Of a DNA stretch of 64,000 nt, positions 11,017-57,446 are shown in pieces. Every line of letters begins with the position of its first letter. Positions within the stretch are counted from its first letter, which is position 1. The translations under genes were made by a program, and so were the position numbers. The stretch is taken from assembly GCA_951406725.2 (NCBI GenBank), contig OX597830.1:682001-746000 (forward strand). Direction: 5' to 3'. The notes beneath the pieces are model-generated. The model searched no databases. It had not been told where the DNA came from and was given only the letters and a program-made list of their open reading frames with translations. This stretch comes from Octopus vulgaris. Taxonomy: Eukaryota.

Positions 11017-11118
<102 letters not shown>

Positions 11119-11214
11119 TATGTGTATGTATGAGTGTATATCTGTGTGCTGGTATCAATATTTATATAAATATTTTATGTATATGTATATATATATGTGT
11201 GTGTGGGGAGGGTG

Positions 11215-11495
11215 TACAAATCTCCTCTAACTCTTTGGCCTATATGACTGCGTACACCTTTCAATGCAATGTGTGCGAGAAGGCTTGCAAATCTAACGGA
11301 GGCCTCAAGAGACATTTTAAGATCCACAAATGTCGGAACTTATTTGTAGCTTTTGGTGGTCCAAATCGGAGGAGCAATTTATGTGGGTGTCTTTTCAAAA
11401 CATTGTCTGGCTTTAAAAGTCACATCAGATGCAATGATGGTTCTAAGGTGTAGGTACACGAGGCAGTCAAACTCTGCATAGCGAGTAGACAACCA

Positions 11496-33225: not shown

Positions 33226-33813
33226 TTGAGATGCATATCGCAAATATTGATTCGTTGTGTTAAGTGAATCTCTTTCAATTTATGTTGAACCCAGATATCG
33301 AGCTTTTTAACGAGTCCAAGACATTTTAAGTGAATTTCAATTGTTGTGTGTGATACATTTAAACTCTCTGCAATCGCTCGAACAGTTATATATCAATTAG
33401 ATTCAATTATGGCTTTGATTCGGTCATCATAAACTTCAGTAGGTCGACCAGAACGTTGGTCATCTTTGAGTGAAAAATCTGCAGAACGGAACTTTTTAAA
33501 CCAATTCTGGTATCTGTGCATTCTGTTAAGCAATCAACACCATAAACTTCACATATCTCTTTGTGAGCCTCAGAAGTTTTCTTGCCTTTATGAAAATAAA
33601 AGCAAAATACGGCGAAAATGTTCGCTATTGCACTCCATATTAAAATAGACCCAAAACAGCTGTAAACAAAATTACGCGCAATTTGCTACTAAACAAACTA
33701 AAAGTAATGGCTATCAAATGCCAAGAGGAACAAAATCATAACATTGAGAAAAGTTATTAAAAAAATGGAACTATCTATTTGCGAAAAACGAAATTAATTT
33801 CTTGCCAACCCAA
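33226..33813 (-). mobile_element. Mariner transposon 5' half (TIR and N-terminal transposase)
   Basis: TIR TA-ttgggttggcaagaaatt; MECNSEHFR...NWFKKFRS...RSGRPTEV...IWVQHKL (WVPHEL motif). Confidence 0.9.
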
Positions 33814-51394: not shown

Positions 51395-51884
51395 TATGCT
51401 CCAGTGAAGTGACTGTTATCAAAACTCTTATGTGTATGTTCCCCAAGATAACTGATCAGCTCTCCTTATCATTAATATTTATTTCTATTAACAGTAATGA
51501 CATATTGTACAGGGCTCTTTGATTTCAAAATTTCAATTCCTCATTAATTTATGCCATTAAATTCGTTAGCTTATGCATTCTAAATTTTCTTTAATGCCTA
51601 GAATCACATTAAATACACTAGTTTCCAATAATATTTTAATTGCATGAAATTCACCTTGTTTTTGCATTTTGTGTTATTTTGAATTTTAAAAAAATATTTT
51701 TAATTATTCATTAAAATACGATACAGGTAATGAAAATTTATTAATTTAAATATCTAAATTTTACAATATAATAGTTGCGTTTCACAACCCAGTTTGCTGC
51801 TGAGTTCATGGCATAATTTGAATTTTGGTAAAACTATTAGTGCATCGAATGGTTGTATACTGTCAATCTAACGTGAACGTGACA

Positions 51885-52415
51885 GTAGGGGGTTACATCA
51901 CCGCTGTTTAGCCCTAGGAAGCATCGACGCTTCTTGCTGGCTTCGACACAGTTTTCCTGTGTTCTTATATACATTTACGAAGGGAAGACAAACACCTCCA
52001 GCAGCCAGGCCTGCATCTAGAGACACGCATGTTTCAGGATCATTGTCCATCATCGGTCTGGAGTATATAAAAAATTTAAAGGACTGGCCAGTTAAAGTGG
52101 ACGGTCAATATGCTAGATATAGACGTCAAAATCGCTATTTTCCACGAAGAATGTGTTCTCAAGAAAAAAATAACTCAGCACAAAACCAAAGTGTAAAAAA
52201 TAAGCAAGACAAATGAAAATATATGAAATAATAACGAAATAATAGGTAATCGTTATTATTTCGTATATTTTCATTTGTCTTGCTTATTTTTTACACTTTG
52301 GTTTTGTGCTGAGTTATTTTTTTCTTGAGAACACATTCTTCGTGGAAAATAGCGATTTTGACGTCTATATCTAGCATATTGACCGTCCACTTTAACTGGC
52401 CAGTCCTTTAAATTT

Positions 52416-52416
<1 letters not shown>
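51885..52416. mobile_element. PLE pseudo-LTR fragment with 167-bp fold-back ending in (TA)n
   Basis: Arms 52071-52237 / 52250-52416 with 12-nt spacer; hammerhead adjacent. Confidence 0.85.
52016..52062 (-). ncRNA. Variant hammerhead motif (CCGATGA core)
   Basis: tccaga-CCGATGA-t[gga caatga tcc]t-GAAA-catgcgtg-TC-tctaga. Confidence 0.75.
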
Positions 52417-52477
<61 letters not shown>

Positions 52478-52532
52478 CATATATATAAATATATATATAT
52501 AGATATGTATCTTTGTATATATATATGCGAAT

Positions 52533-52750
52533 GGGGGAGCTTGGCTTAGTGATTACGTTGTTGCACTCGTGAAATAAGATTGTGCTTTCAATTCCTGGAC
52601 CGAGTGATGCGTTGTGTTCTTAAACGAAAGCTTTCATTTCACGTTGCTGAAGTCCATTTAGCTGGTTAACATTAGCAATCCTAAGAAGGGCCGGTGTCCC
52701 GTCGAAGAGCAGGGGAATATATACGTCACAGACCCGAGTGACCGGCCTTA
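52533..52750 (+). mobile_element. tRNA/CORE SINE (family of 30675-30945), diverged
   Basis: tggcttagtg A box; gtgttcttaaacgaaagctttcatttcacgttgctg. Confidence 0.75.
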
Positions 52751-54009
52751 TATATCAATGGCTGGCGAAAGACCTGTGATCGTTTTCATATATAAGGACA
52801 GACAGAGAGTAAAATACTAGAGATGAAAGGAAATGGTGTGGCGAAATTATACATGTGCACACGCATTCGTACGTACATACGTCTAATGAGACATGGTTAA
52901 TAATATATGTAGACAACCATATACATACATACATACATACGCACACACAGACACATAGATAAAGAGAGGGGGAGAGAGAGATAAAGGAGAGAGAAAATGG
53001 ATCAAGAAAAGATTTGAGAGGGAAAGAGAAATAGTACGAATGGGAAAGAGTACAAAAGAGTTAGAATTAGAGGAAATTAAAGTAAAAGGAGAAAGTGAGA
53101 GGAGACAGAATTTGGGGTGAGAGGCGAGATATGTGACAGAGAAAATTAAATAAACTGTGATGACCGTTGCGAGAGGGAAAGAGAGAGAGACAAAGAGAGC
53201 GTTAGTAAGAAAGCAGGCTACAAGTGAAATGTTCCTCTTCTCGTTAGTATAATTGATATGTGCAGTGAATATTGATGTATTTGATAACATTCCTACAGTA
53301 ATTAAAGGCTATTGAGAGATTAAAGGAAAAAAAAAAGGTCGGATTGGTTAAGAACCATTTCGGTATGATTTAAAATTTTCAATTTTATGCAATTTTATGC
53401 AGAATATGTCGAGGCATGATGGTTGCCGCTCATTGTTTTTGTTGTTATTGCTGATGTCATTAATCTGTACGTCAGCTCGGACTAAGTAAATATATCAAAG
53501 AACATCTTACCGTTGTGACCATACTGTCCTTTTCAGTGTTTAACACAGCATTATTGGATGCGTCCATTTTAGACGACATGTTGTACTCTGAGAGATTTCA
53601 CGTATTTCATATATATCTATCTATCGACTATTTAGCTTTTCTACGTATAGGACTTCTATATTTGTTATTGTTGCTGCAGTTGTTGTCTTGTCCTATTTAG
53701 TTTCTGTGGAAAATATCTTTGATCAAAATCAATCTAGCCATATCCATTTACTCTCACACTGATTTCAGAGTGTGCCGTTGCCAACATTTTAAGGCGGAGA
53801 TCAATATTTCTAACGGATCAGCTGTCAACGTCCATGCTACCTTATTAAGTGAAACTCATATTTCAATTAATGCCAACAAGATTGCTTAATTAATGTTGAT
53901 TGATGCGGATTTGGCAGTTTAAAATTCTTTATAATTTAACTGCAGTAAAAGTCTTGTGTATCAAGTTAGGAAGCATTAATATGTTTCTCCGTAAATATCT
54001 TTATCTATT

Positions 54010-54090
54010 TATACTTTATTTCTTTCAGTCATTGGATAGCGGCCATGCTGGGGCACCACCTTGAAGGATTTCAGTTGAATAGATCAACCC
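54010..54090 (-). mobile_element. SINE 3' tail fragment
   Basis: tttcagtcattggatagcggccatgctggggcaccaccttgaagg. Confidence 0.75.
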
Positions 54091-54525
54091 TCACCCTCAG
54101 TGAATTGGTGAAGTCAGATATAAAGAGGTTCTGAAATTTATAGAAAGGACTGATGCAAGAACACCACAACATCCCGTCAGCGAAAAGAAAAGGGCAATCA
54201 CAGCATTAAGATGTTGCTGTTGGCATTCATGGCTTTGGCGATATGAAGATGTATTAATGTCCGTGTCCTTTTCTATTCTCTGAAGTGGTTTTACCCATCA
54301 TCATATATTCATATATTATTGATATCGACTTAGTCTCTGACCTCTCTGAGTTTCACGTGCAAATGCACACGAAATGATAATTTGCTTGAAAATCTGTGTA
54401 CCCCCAGAACAAGTACCAGAGTGGACCAAAATAAAACGTAACGGTATTTGACACTATATTACCGTTAGTTAAAAACTACACACACAGAAACACACACAAG
54501 CACATACAAATATTAAGAGAGAGAA

Positions 54526-54560
<35 letters not shown>

Positions 54561-55578
54561 AAGACAGTGAGAGAGAGAGAGAGACAGAGAGAGATACATT
54601 CATACATACGCCGAGGGTGTTCCTATATTGTATGAATGTACACACGCATAAAGGCTTATATTCACATATATGTTCGACATATTTTGACAGTGAGTCTATG
54701 TGAATGAGCAGTAGCTTGTATATTATATATTAAATTATGCGTACTTTGATAGAAATAATCTGTTGAGGACAAATGGATGAATAAATATCAGTGCATGTGC
54801 GTACCGTGTACGCGCCTACATGTCTGTGCGCATGTCTTTATTTATAAATTAGAACTGATTCAGAATTATTCGTGGAACTTTAGGATCCAGAGCCTTCTGT
54901 TTTTTTGTTTTTTTTTACCGTAAGATTTTGTCATTGCCCATTATATCGATGTGGTATTGGTGTTGAGAAAACTTGATGCAACATTGCCCTTGACATAGTT
55001 CAGGAAACACATGTTACTTCTAGTTTTTGCTGGTGTTCTACTTGGACTTCATTTATGCTAGGAGATGACCTTCAAATGTTTTACTGGACCATGTCGACTA
55101 CTGAATATATCTAATACTATTGTTATCGATCTTTGTTGCTTGCTGGGAAACTACTGATGAAGTGTTATAGATCTTTGGTTTTGCTTTACTTCAGAAAGCA
55201 CTCCTTTATACTTATTCCATTAAAGACTGACTAAAAGGTTCTTAATATTCAATAATATTCTAACAGATCTTCTCTCTGATCACAACCGCCCTCTTTCGCC
55301 CTACATATACTTGTCCATTAGCGGAAGATTAAATACTTCGTTGAAGAAATCTTTCTCTTTCATTCTATGCAAAAGTCTTTGAAATACTTAGTGATCGAAT
55401 TTCTCATCAGTCTCTCGTTCTTTCTCTCTCTCCTCTGAATATGTATTTCCAAATACAAACCTACACACACCAACACGCCTAACGTTTCTACATTATAATA
55501 AATAAATATCGTTCTGTCAGATCTTTTGGTTAAATGCAAATATCTTTGGTATCATCACAACAAAATTCATTTTCTTCC

Positions 55579-55639
<61 letters not shown>

Positions 55640-55641
<2 letters not shown>

Positions 55642-56080
55642 CGTAAAGTATACTAGCCTTCTCAATATGGCTAACCACTAAGGGTGGGTGTTACTGTAGC
55701 TTTTATCCCCAGGAGATCATCGTCTCCAGCTGGCTTTAGGCACACTTTCTGTGCCCTTATGGTATTTGGAAAGGGAGGTCATCCCTCTCTCGTAAACCTA
55801 AGCGATACGCACGGACTGCAGTTTCGAGGTAATTTGCCTCTTAACGTACGGTAATCACCGGTTTACGATGAAAGGAAGACCTGTTTGCAAATACTTATGG
55901 GTTTTCTAGTAACTTCCGTCACTGATTTCGAAAAACTGTCTGCAAGCAATAATAAATCTCTAAACGAGATGTAAACAGTAACCGCTCGACAACGTAAAGT
56001 ATACTAGCCATCTCAATATGGCTAACCACTAAGGGTGGGTGTTACTGTAGCTTTTAGCCCCGGCTAGTATACTTTACGTT
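55640..56080 (-). mobile_element. PLE pseudo-LTR with partial tandem copy and 19-bp inverted end
   Basis: 55640-55710 repeated at 55991-56061; 56062-56080 is the reverse complement of 55991-56009; abuts (TA)n. Confidence 0.85.
55808..55850 (-). ncRNA. Hammerhead motif with damaged CUGANGA box
   Basis: cgtacg-ttaa-[gagg caaatta cctc]-GAAA-ctgcag-TC-cgtgcg; helices intact, first core box deleted or mutated. Confidence 0.6.
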
Positions 56081-56084
56081 GGCT

Positions 56085-56455
56085 ATCATACAATGAATTG
56101 GCCTTTCCTATTTTCTTCTTAGTCCTTTCAATGGTGTTCCATGACTTGCTCCTATACAGTGGGTAAATCCCATTCCTATCGTTATGTATGATAGTTTCAA
56201 ATTTCCTCATGGCTCCTTTGTATACTCTGATACTTTCTCTATCTCAAAAATTGCATGCGGTGAACGAAATGTTGTATGTGTCTCTTTAACTCTGTAGGCT
56301 CGCATATGCGGGACACATTTCGCATTACTCTGACGAGGTCTGACATCAATATATTGCATTTGGCATTGTCTGCGATAGCTGAGTTCCGGTCGATTAGGTA
56401 TTTGGAGGCCACTGGTTTGGCATAGTGTGAGTGAAGGATTCAGGTTTTATTATTT
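56085..56455 (-). pseudogene. PLE RT thumb-domain fragment
   Basis: ILHSHY.KPVASKYLIDRNSAI...KCNILMSDLVRVMRNVS...HFVHRMQF...DRNGIYPLYRSKSW...R.KKK. Confidence 0.75.
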
Positions 56456-56505
56456 TTTTATTGGTTAAACTAGCAACATGACCATCCCCAAATACAATAT
56501 ATATA

Positions 56506-57432
56506 TGGAACAATCTCGAGTATAACCAGCCAAAATTGCAAAGATAATCTGGAATTCGACTGAGGAAAGAAAACTTTGAATGACCCGTCCTTGTTTTCTT
56601 TGTATCGTCTATCTGGATGTTTTGTTGTCCCTTTTTTGTCTGGATGTTTTGCGTTGTTGTCCCATTTTGTATTTTTTATATATAAAATATATAGCGGCCT
56701 ACGTACACTTTGGTCTCTTATATGTAAGTATATATTTATCTAAATCTTGTACGACTCTATTCTTTCTATCATTCTTTCCTTCTTTCTATCAGCCCTTTCA
56801 CGCTTACTTCGTTCATTCCACTCTTCGTTATTTCGTTCCCTCTCTCTCACATTCCCTTGCCTTCTCTTCATGCTCACTTTCCCTCCTCTTTTCACTTCAC
56901 ACTTTTCTCGCCCCTCCTTATTTCTTCTGTCCCTCTGCCTCTACCTCTCTCTCTTCTCTCTCCCCGTGACCGGTGTTCGGGCAAGTCTGACCTTTCTTTC
57001 TTGGTTCGGCCGCCGTCCGTCCAACATCTGTATTCCTTCCCGTGCCTGTGAAATCCTGTATCTCTGCCGTAAGGCTTTACTTCCACACACGCCAATTCAA
57101 TTTAATTCGTCCTTAGTCGAAAGATACCGGTTGTTATGTCCTGTTATTTGTATAACATTCTCCGTTTTTCCGTCCTTGTTTTCGCTGCTTTCTTCCAAGG
57201 AATCTAATGCTCTTAGCTTAGTTTTTCCTTGGGGCTGGCCAGATTGGAGCAATCTCGAGTATAACCAGCCGAAATTACAAAGATAATCTGGAACTCGACT
57301 GAGGAAGGAAAACTCCGAATGACCCATCCTTGTTTCCTTTGTATCGTCTATCTGGATGTTTTCTTGACCCTTTTTTATATCATCTGTCTGGAGGTTTGCG
57401 TTCTTGTCCCATTTTTTTATTTTTTATATATA
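56506..57432 (+). mobile_element. Non-coding element with about 180-bp terminal direct repeats (pseudo-LTR-like)
   Basis: 56506-56685 is repeated at 57245-57432. Confidence 0.75.
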
Positions 57433-57446
57433 AAAAATAATATATT

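What the first reader, a model, noticed from the sequence alone, without database searches (positions are those of the whole stretch)
51903..55760. Covarying two-hairpin module at an identical offset downstream of the hammerhead in two divergent elements
Seen on the minus strand. 51968-51903: ATAAGa-[acacag GAAAA ctgtgt]-cGAAGCCAGCaa-[gaagc gtcgat gcttc]-ctaGGGCTAAA. 55760-55699: ATAAG-[ggcaca GAAAG tgtgcc]-tAAAGCCAGCt-[ggaga cgatga tctcc]-tgGGG(A/C)TAAA, with C in the duplicate near 56057. Stem sequences differ but pairing, stem length and loop length are kept. AGCC/GGCT closes an outer helix. Both modules start 48 nt from the end of the hammerhead. Inference: a conserved RNA element I cannot name, perhaps an RT-binding or template-boundary signal, a stability element or a second ribozyme.
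Basis: partly seen in the sequence, partly recalled or inferred. Interest (0 to 1): 0.75.

Follow-up and report, generated by a model that had tools for sequence, protein, structure and literature searches.

The report
Conserved RNA fold beside retroelement hammerheads
Two related jumping-gene remnants, likely from an octopus genome, carry the same small fold, predicted as two hairpins, 53 bases after their hammerhead ribozyme cut site; it likely serves as the handle by which a Penelope-type reverse transcriptase picks up the RNA, but that role is untested.

Summary
The module is real. In both elements ATAAG starts 54 nt after the hammerhead cut site, and the 60-nt modules are homologous (z 7.8; 0 of 1000 shuffles). 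The covariation is smaller than first read: hairpin 1 is mostly a register shift, leaving 3 double changes among 15 pairs, plus a third pair type in public contigs. Element E2 is a 351-nt, high-copy, head-to-tail, non-coding hammerhead unit with a 5' inversion, a TA-rich target and two candidate 3' ends 50 nt apart: a non-LTR retrozyme or non-autonomous Penelope-like element (known kind). E1 is a truncated copy of a diverged sister family. The module lies between the hammerhead and the first insertion end, the interval that the one Penelope-like element studied in vitro needs. Best reading: a cis RNA element recognised by the Penelope reverse transcriptase (0.5). No Rfam family reaches threshold and seven literature searches showed no description. 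Limits: two families only, no genome, folding strand undecided, no link shown to an autonomous partner. The scan's notes held no look-alike; one note describes other hairpins in a Penelope-like element.

The parts
52016..52063 (-). E1 type I minimal hammerhead (core with C at position 4; near-palindromic stem III; cut site after 52022). 5'-truncated: only about 7 nt of stem I lie upstream before the palindrome at 52064
   Evidence: sequence; not scored by Rfam
51969..52021 (-). E1 53-nt spacer between cut site and module
51964..51968 (-). E1 ATAAG at +54
51946..51962 (-). E1 hairpin 1, 6 bp, 5-nt purine loop
   Evidence: pair probabilities 0.70-1.0
51910..51942 (-). E1 outer AGCC/GGCT helix enclosing hairpin 2 (51933-51918, 5 bp, 6-nt loop)
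   Evidence: outer helix 0.64-0.81, hairpin 2 0.95-0.99
51855..51896 (-). E1 downstream part: GTAAC at +126, a third hairpin, GTATAC at +162; weakly alignable with E2 (z 1.65)
55640..55990 (-). E2 monomer, 351 nt, 43.6% GC, non-coding; head-to-tail unit of a high-copy family
   Evidence: 71-nt duplication at spacing 351; joints 55990 to 55640 or 55643 in contigs of 3 of 4 runs; GC
55808..55850 (-). E2 type I hammerhead (palindromic TGCA stem III; cut site after 55814); core lacks 3 nt in this copy
   Evidence: bases put in behind 55842 in contigs of 3 of 4 runs
55762..55894 (-). E2 predicted rod of about 45-50 bp (55894-55845 with 55813-55762) with the hammerhead at its tip; its 3' arm is the 53-nt spacer
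55739..55760 (-). E2 ATAAG (+54) and hairpin 1, 6 bp, 5-nt purine loop
   Evidence: pair probabilities 0.94-1.0
55705..55735 (-). E2 outer helix (broken by A55706 in this copy) enclosing hairpin 2 (55727-55712)
55640..55700 (-). E2 3' part with two more hairpins and the first inferred insertion end (55643/55648, +171/+166); a TA run follows at 55639
55944..55990 (-). E2 candidate 'tail': the second inferred insertion end at 55944 lies 50 nt beyond the first in tandem order
   Evidence: AT-rich loose ends at 55944 in 2 of 4 runs among the rows shown; distance
55991..56061 (-). 71-nt partial second copy of E2, starting at the 3' strand of the module's outer helix (equivalent to 55710)
   Evidence: 97% identity to 55640-55710
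56062..56081 (+). 20-nt inverted copy of the E2 3' end, a head-to-head junction
56076..56451 (-). Broken fragment of a Penelope-like ORF (region after the RT core) abutting the inversion; not shown to be E2's partner
   Evidence: 84% and 76% identity to P0001 residues 571-638 and 644-698; clade features

Best explanation
The module is a homologous stretch, predicted to fold into two hairpins, shared by two diverged hammerhead-bearing repeat families, and it is likely the cis RNA signal that a Penelope-like reverse transcriptase would bind before it starts copying further 3' in the same RNA. Shown: position, homology, tandem 351-nt unit, 5' inversion, TA-rich flank. Predicted: the fold. Inferred: the unit is transcribed as a multimer or circle; an autonomous Penelope-like protein acting in trans docks on hairpin 1 and the AGCC/GGCT-closed hairpin 2, nicks AT-rich DNA and begins cDNA at +166/+171 or +221 from the cut site; cDNA then runs back through the module, often stopping or flipping at its 3' edge, or on round the unit to give partial tandems like the one in the window. 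Only RNAs that keep the fold are copied, which is why the module is conserved while the spacer drifts.
For: Module z 7.8 against z 1.0 for the spacer and 1.65 for the part after it. Three double changes among 15 homologous pairs; rough chance 0.005, or 2e-4 if each must also stay paired, on an alignment chosen by eye. A subfamily in contigs (loose end at 55724: 18 contigs in X1, 1 in X14) has G-C at the fifth pair of hairpin 2, where E2 has A-U and E1 C-G. Of the 9 variant rows shown in 55701-55760, one restores the outer helix, six fall in loops or linkers of the stated structure, one keeps a pair as G-U (55740, 33-50% of depth), one breaks a pair (55755, at most 1.5% in the three DNA runs, 32% in X14 from one contig). 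Tandem joints, AT-rich loose ends at 55643/55648 and 55944, and loose ends at 55704 in 36, 35 and 9 contigs; the window's own partial copy starts at the equivalent of 55710. In the anole element, reverse transcription starts inside the RNA 85-92 nt after the hammerhead cut, the active RNA spans from about the cut site to 146 nt past it, and the two start sites bound the tail (PMC11167929). pLTR sequence alone sufficed for mobilisation in trans in a rotifer case (PMC3846280).
Against: Only two families; no formal covariation test. No autonomous element carrying the module was found: the one related Penelope-like locus fetched, L076, has a different hammerhead-like core and no module in the roughly 120 nt that follow; none of the 18 motif hits in the Craig 2021 supplement shows it. 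Eight other hammerhead-like cores inspected in the window lack it. Folding does not pick the sense strand: E1 module z -3.83 on plus against -3.45 on minus, E2 -2.48 against -2.46. The minimum-energy circular fold of the window's E2 copy omits hairpin 2 and the outer helix, though hairpin 2 holds 0.66-0.76 in the ensemble. If the predicted seventh G-U pair of hairpin 1 is counted, the variant at 55738 breaks it. Variants in the rod are not protected: 6 keep and 6 break a pair, unphased. 29 of 69 variant rows and 479 of 503 loose-end rows were not shown. The loose letters at 55704 are only 9-10 long, so they may be chance matches to another repeat. The tail is 50 nt against 30-40 in print, and the first end is twice as far from the cut site as in the anole element.
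Confidence: 0.5

Rival explanations
1. The fold is kept for the RNA's own life cycle and not for the reverse transcriptase: it stabilises or compacts the cut linear or circular RNA, or binds a host protein, and keeps the hammerhead rod folded.
For: The E2 monomer folds well as a circle on the sense strand (z -4.26, 0 of 200, against -2.56 on the other). Animal retrozyme circles are abundant and predicted to be self-paired (PMC7229834 passages).
Against: General stability would not need invariant unpaired letters (ATAAG, AAGCCAGC, GGGCTAAA) or a fixed offset.
Confidence: 0.17
2. Shared ancestry only: E1 and E2 descend from one pLTR, the module simply diverged less, and the few paired changes arose from fold-back copying errors typical of these elements rather than selection on an RNA fold.
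For: Hairpin 1 is largely a register shift; the outer helix never varies; ten of 15 pairs are unchanged; Penelope-like elements make palindromes readily (PMC3846280).
Against: Three pair types at one position of hairpin 2 and a sharp contrast in conservation between module and flanks.
Confidence: 0.13
3. The structure acts on the opposite strand, in the nascent cDNA or an antisense RNA, as a fold-back or second-strand priming signal or an endonuclease site.
For: E1's hairpin 2 extends to 8 bp on the plus strand through G-U pairs that are A-C mismatches on the minus strand. Antisense templates and self-priming have been argued for these elements (PMC3846280). The window's inversion joins at the module edge.
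Against: Among E2 variants, four keep a pair only on the sense strand (55740, 55762, 55788, 55847) against two only on the other (55785, 55894), my reading; the hammerhead is on the minus strand.
Confidence: 0.09
4. The module is an internal promoter read as DNA; ATAAG is the end of a TATA-like box.
For: E1 reads TATATAAG there. Penelope has an internal promoter (PMC2377424 abstract) and a rotifer pLTR has a TATA-like box.
Against: E2 lacks the TATA-like run, a subfamily changes ATAAG (loose ends at 55757), and a DNA promoter does not explain paired changes.
Confidence: 0.06
5. The module is a second, new self-cleaving or ligating ribozyme.
For: Conserved unpaired letters around a closed helix; a GGCTAA stretch recalls the J4/2 strand of HDV-like ribozymes (recalled, from no call).
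Against: No ribozyme family appears in the Rfam scan to E 10; no pseudoknot was evident by eye; the recurrent junction at its edge is explained as truncation.
Confidence: 0.05

Closest known systems
Non-LTR retrozymes of animals (Cervera and de la Pena 2020, PMC7229834; Li et al. 2026, 10.64898/2026.07.22.740005)
   Same: 170-400 nt head-to-tail non-coding units with a type I hammerhead and GC under 45%; mussel units are 350-390 bp; related to pLTRs of Penelope-like elements.
   Different: The passages read describe no conserved structured module 3' of the hammerhead; expression, circles and cleavage are not shown here; window copies have broken cores.
pLTR and tail of endonuclease-positive Penelope-like elements (PMC4209133, PMC8557442, PMC3846280)
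   Same: Hammerhead with short palindromic stem III, partial tandem, inverted 5' piece, TA-rich target, optional 3' extension.
   Different: No ORF inside the unit; extension 50 nt rather than 30-40; no autonomous partner shown.
RNA region needed by the anole Poseidon protein PAc (Frangieh et al. 2024, PMC11167929)
   Same: Internal reverse-transcription start 3' of the hammerhead, with the required RNA lying in the same interval as this module.
   Different: That region is coding in PAc and the binding motif was hypothesised, not mapped; start sites are 85-92 nt after the cut against 166-171 here; I could not see the PAc sequence, so likeness of fold is untested.
Telomerase RNA binding and template-boundary helices (recalled)
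   Same: A structured element 5' of the copied region, read by a related reverse transcriptase family.
   Different: Analogy only; no sequence or Rfam match, and cDNA here often passes through the module.

Membership tests
Non-LTR retrozyme (E2) | Head-to-tail unit of 170-400 nt | tested here: met
   351-nt spacing; joints going back 351 in 6 contigs of X2 and 5 of X9, back 348 in 3 of X1, none in X14
Non-LTR retrozyme (E2) | Type I hammerhead in the unit | tested here: inconclusive
   Stems and GAAA/GTC present; core lacks 3 nt in the window copy; contigs supply bases behind 55842, but one listed form still departs from the core; no Rfam score
Non-LTR retrozyme (E2) | No protein coding, GC under 45% | tested here: met
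   43.6% GC; stop-to-stop frames over the unit reach at most 59 codons
Non-LTR retrozyme (E2) | Expressed as linear and circular RNA that self-cleaves | not testable with these tools
   Only contigs were available
Non-LTR retrozyme (E1) | Head-to-tail unit | not tested
   Single truncated copy in the window; the one read-laying run went to E2
Penelope-like element derivative | Partial tandem with inverted 5' piece and AT-rich target | tested here: met
   55991-56061, 56062-56081, TA run at 55639; AT-rich loose ends
Penelope-like element derivative | Optional 30-40 bp tail between two 3' ends | tested here: inconclusive
   Two candidate ends 50 nt apart, from contig loose ends
Penelope-like element derivative | Sequence homology to the pLTR of an autonomous element | tested here: inconclusive
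   An ORF fragment abuts E2 but L076, the one related locus found, lacks the module
Poseidon-type pLTR (PAc) | ORF starts in hammerhead stem II and runs through the region | tested here: not met
   E1 has a 51-codon frame from that point; 10 phmmer hits, all multi-stretch; the 4 inspected look unrelated to Penelope proteins. E2 has no ATG there
Known small ribozymes and RNA families in Rfam 15 | Covariance-model match at gathering score | tested here: not met
   0 hits in 64 kb; of 12 hits to E 10 in 51500-56600, one overlaps the E2 module, a pestivirus UTR model at 34.7 of 90 bits driven by the TA run
HDV-like ribozyme | Nested double pseudoknot with P1, P1.1, P3 ahead of the J4/2 strand | tested here: inconclusive
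   No Rfam match; inspected by eye only, no descriptor search run

The most novel reading that the evidence does not exclude
The module is a telomerase-RNA-like domain of Penelope-like elements: it docks the reverse transcriptase, sets the start site at a measured distance and acts as a boundary where cDNA stops or flips, and it is what lets hammerhead retrozymes hijack the enzyme. It would be a transplantable tag for Penelope-driven insertion.
Probability: 0.2. Interest if true: 0.75.

Novelty: new variant of a known kind. Interest (0 to 1): 0.42.

Why it matters
How Penelope-like reverse transcriptases, the closest relatives of telomerase, choose their RNA is open: the one in vitro study narrowed the needed region but did not map a motif, and retrozyme mobilisation by these enzymes is a proposal. 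A 60-nt non-coding module kept in two diverged families gives a concrete target for binding and mutagenesis tests, free of the coding constraint that clouds the anole element. If it is only a stability fold or shared ancestry, the finding is an ordinary retrozyme annotation.

Tried and rejected
No genome is held for this window, so no genome-wide alignment. Rfam: nothing at threshold. Pattern scans for homologues: viral contigs, 69 loci and 47 distinct matches, of which 1 (L056) reached 6 and 5 pairs by a loose count; metagenome contigs, 6 loci, none with the fold or a hammerhead on inspection; viral contigs with hammerhead plus module, 0 of 27 with a hammerhead core; an E1/E2 profile found nothing at E 1 or better in L001-L076. 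No further copy in the window by nhmmer, a sequence-only Infernal model (RNAalifold gave no pairs) or descriptors; the relaxed descriptor gave 2 extra hits against a mean of 1.9 in resamples. Related Penelope-like loci: none in viral contigs, 1 of 84 candidates in genome contigs. Pfam on 100 of 215 candidate frames found no RT or GIY-YIG in the window. E1 coding N-terminus rejected. Sequencing runs: no RNA holder listed; X14 is RNA by guess only. Summed contig depth falls 5' of the E2 cut site, but contigs cannot show ends or levels and the window's 3-nt gap lies there, so I do not use it. The bacterial promoter scan does not apply. Papers seen: PMC11167929 parts 1-2 of 4, supplement search empty; 10.64898/2026.07.22.740005 parts 1 and 3 of 5; PMC4209133 parts 1-2 of 4; passages of PMC8557442, PMC7229834, PMC13282606, PMC6765202, PMC3846280; abstract of PMC2377424. 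Lunse 2016 not held. Supplements not seen that may bear on novelty: PMC7229834 (unreadable), the preprint's, PMC13282606 (listed, not read), the PAc sequence file. Repbase and Dfam could not be searched. 'Not in print' rests on searches.
Full report
Setting. The window is AT-rich, full of microsatellites and without long ORFs. A broken frame at 56451-56076 is 84% and 76% identical to P0001, which its source names a reverse-transcriptase-domain protein of Octopus vulgaris, so the host is likely an octopus (inference). No genome is held.

The observation. Both modules are on the minus strand as described. Counting from the hammerhead cut site (after 52022 in E1, after 55814 in E2), ATAAG starts at +54 in both, AAGCC at +79 and +78, the GGGCTAAA motif at +108 and +105 (A for C in this E2 copy), GTAAC at +126 and +120, GTATAC at +162 and +161. 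The downstream regions align with score 53 against 18.4 +- 2.8, 0 of 2000 shuffles; by segment the module gives z 7.8 (0 of 1000), the spacer z 1.0 (165 of 1000) and the part after it z 1.65 (56 of 1000). The modules fold better than shuffles: 4 of 1000 as good for E1, 10 of 1000 for E2. Hairpin 1 has pair probabilities 0.70-1.0 in both, hairpin 2 0.95-0.99 in E1 and 0.66-0.91 in E2; the outer helix has 0.64-0.81 in E1 and at most 0.13 in the window's E2 copy, where A55706 breaks it. The duplicate has C at 56057 and contigs of 4 of 4 runs read C at 98.6-99.7% of depth.

How much covariation. Hairpin 1 shares a CACAG/TGTG core; aligned by descent it differs by one double change, one inserted G-C pair and one broken end pair. 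Hairpin 2 has two double changes. The outer helix is invariant. Three doubles among 7 changed positions in 15 pairs has a rough chance of 0.005, or 2e-4 if each must stay paired, on an alignment chosen by eye. Contigs add a subfamily with G-C at the fifth pair of hairpin 2, where E2 has A-U and E1 C-G (loose end at 55724, 18 contigs in X1 and 1 in X14). Of 9 variant rows shown within 55701-55760, one restores the outer helix, six are in loops or linkers, one keeps a G-U pair and one breaks a pair; 29 of 69 rows were hidden. In the long rod 6 variants keep and 6 break a pair, unphased (which used 35 of the 40 rows shown). The equal offset is not gap-free: TCCCTT lies at +37 and +38, and ungapped identity over the spacer is 14 of 53.

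What the elements are. E2 is a 351-nt unit (55990-55640) preceded by a 71-nt partial copy and a 20-nt inverted copy of its own 3' end, and followed by a TA run. In four public runs from four studies, 4196, 2831, 1529 and 102 contigs were laid on it; one of the DNA runs may be the window's source. Joints from 55990 back to 55640 or 55643 stand in 3 of 4 runs, bases are supplied in the hammerhead core behind 55842, and AT-rich loose ends gather at 55643, 55648 and 55944 (24 of 503 loose-end rows shown). I read these as two 3' ends 50 nt apart, at +166/+171 and +221. The unit is 43.6% GC and folds as a circle with the hammerhead at the tip of a rod of about 45-50 bp (z -4.26, 0 of 200). This matches non-LTR retrozymes (PMC7229834), recently tied to pLTRs of Penelope-like elements (10.64898/2026.07.22.740005), and the tandem, inversion and tail anatomy of those elements (PMC8557442; PMC3846280). 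E1 is a 5'-truncated copy of a diverged sister family next to a 174-nt-arm palindrome; whether it is tandem was not tested. Its 51-codon frame found 10 weak multi-stretch hits, and the four inspected look unrelated.

The neighbouring ORF piece belongs to a clade with a C-terminal GIY-YIG-like domain and a cysteine-rich linker, which fits the Neptune or Nematis type as described; I did not build a tree. It abuts E2's inversion, but nothing shows that it is E2's partner. The one related locus found, L076, has a different hammerhead-like core in its 3' UTR and no module, and that core resembles two plus-strand repeats at 56506-56691 and 57245-57439. E2 may have landed in an older element.

How it most likely works. 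In the anole element PAc, purified protein starts reverse transcription inside the RNA, 111-118 nt into the ORF, with the hammerhead cut at 26; active RNA begins no later than +20 and extends to +172; the two start sites bound the tail; hammerhead cleavage is not needed (PMC11167929). The module here lies in the matching interval, between cut site and first insertion end, is the best-conserved part of a non-coding unit, and has junctions at its 3' edge: the window's partial copy begins at the equivalent of 55710, and loose ends at 55704 occur in 36, 35 and 9 contigs with one opposite-strand joint. I infer a cis element bound by the Penelope-like protein, confidence 0.5. Binding, expression and start sites are inferred, not shown. 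Rivals: RNA stability or host-protein binding (0.17), shared ancestry with fold-back copying (0.13), action on the opposite strand (0.09; E1 folds slightly better there), internal promoter (0.06), second ribozyme (0.05).

Comparison and novelty. Rfam has no match at threshold, and the one weak overlap is a TA-driven artefact. No homologue turned up in viral, metagenome or prokaryote collections, in the rest of the window, or among 18 motif hits in the Craig 2021 supplement; these collections hold little animal DNA, so this says little about range. Eight other hammerhead-like cores inspected in the window lack the module, so it is not universal. Seven literature searches showed no description of it, but several supplements, Lunse 2016, Repbase and Dfam were out of reach. 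The scan's notes held no look-alike sequence; two notes on other genomes concern other Penelope-like structures and were not checked. Verdict: a known kind of element carrying a real, apparently undescribed structured module; new variant of a known kind, interest 0.42.

Noticed in passing
window 52064-52423: Palindrome with 174-nt arms, 99% complementary, 12-nt spacer, set between a TA run and the 5' end of E1; looks like a young fold-back insertion.
   Followed up: no
window 19684(-)/19767(+) and 40010(-)/40028(+): Two back-to-back pairs of minimal hammerhead-like cores, fold-back Penelope-type insertions ending in TA runs; no module downstream.
   Followed up: partly
window 46317(+), 46690(-), 7835(-), 914(-): Further hammerhead-like cores of other repeat families, without the module.
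   Followed up: partly
window 56506-56691 and 57245-57439 (+): Two 87% alike repeats with a CTGAGGA hammerhead-like core of the type seen in the 3' UTR of L076; possibly the pLTR of the ORF fragment at 56451-56076.
   Followed up: partly
L076 11-2295: A Penelope-like ORF with a purine-rich 3' UTR fills a 2.7-kb contig of a bacterial metagenome-assembled genome; likely animal DNA binned with it.
   Followed up: no
window 55894-55886 with 55771-55762: In E2 the base of the rod is a near-perfect inverted pair once the majority letter at 55769 is considered, and ATAAG occurs on both arms at its foot (also near 55897).
   Followed up: no
window 55696-55690 with 55982-55975: A long-range helix joins the part after the module to the candidate tail in the tandem or circular RNA and encloses the first insertion end.
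   Followed up: partly
window 25986-25930 (-): A repeat that I recall as a cephalopod SINE carries ATAAG, AAGCC and GGCTAAA in similar spacing but without the two hairpins; taken as chance.
   Followed up: partly
window 11100-11450 (+) and 33410-33685 (-): A C2H2 zinc finger match and a Mos1 transposase HTH match in Pfam.
   Followed up: no
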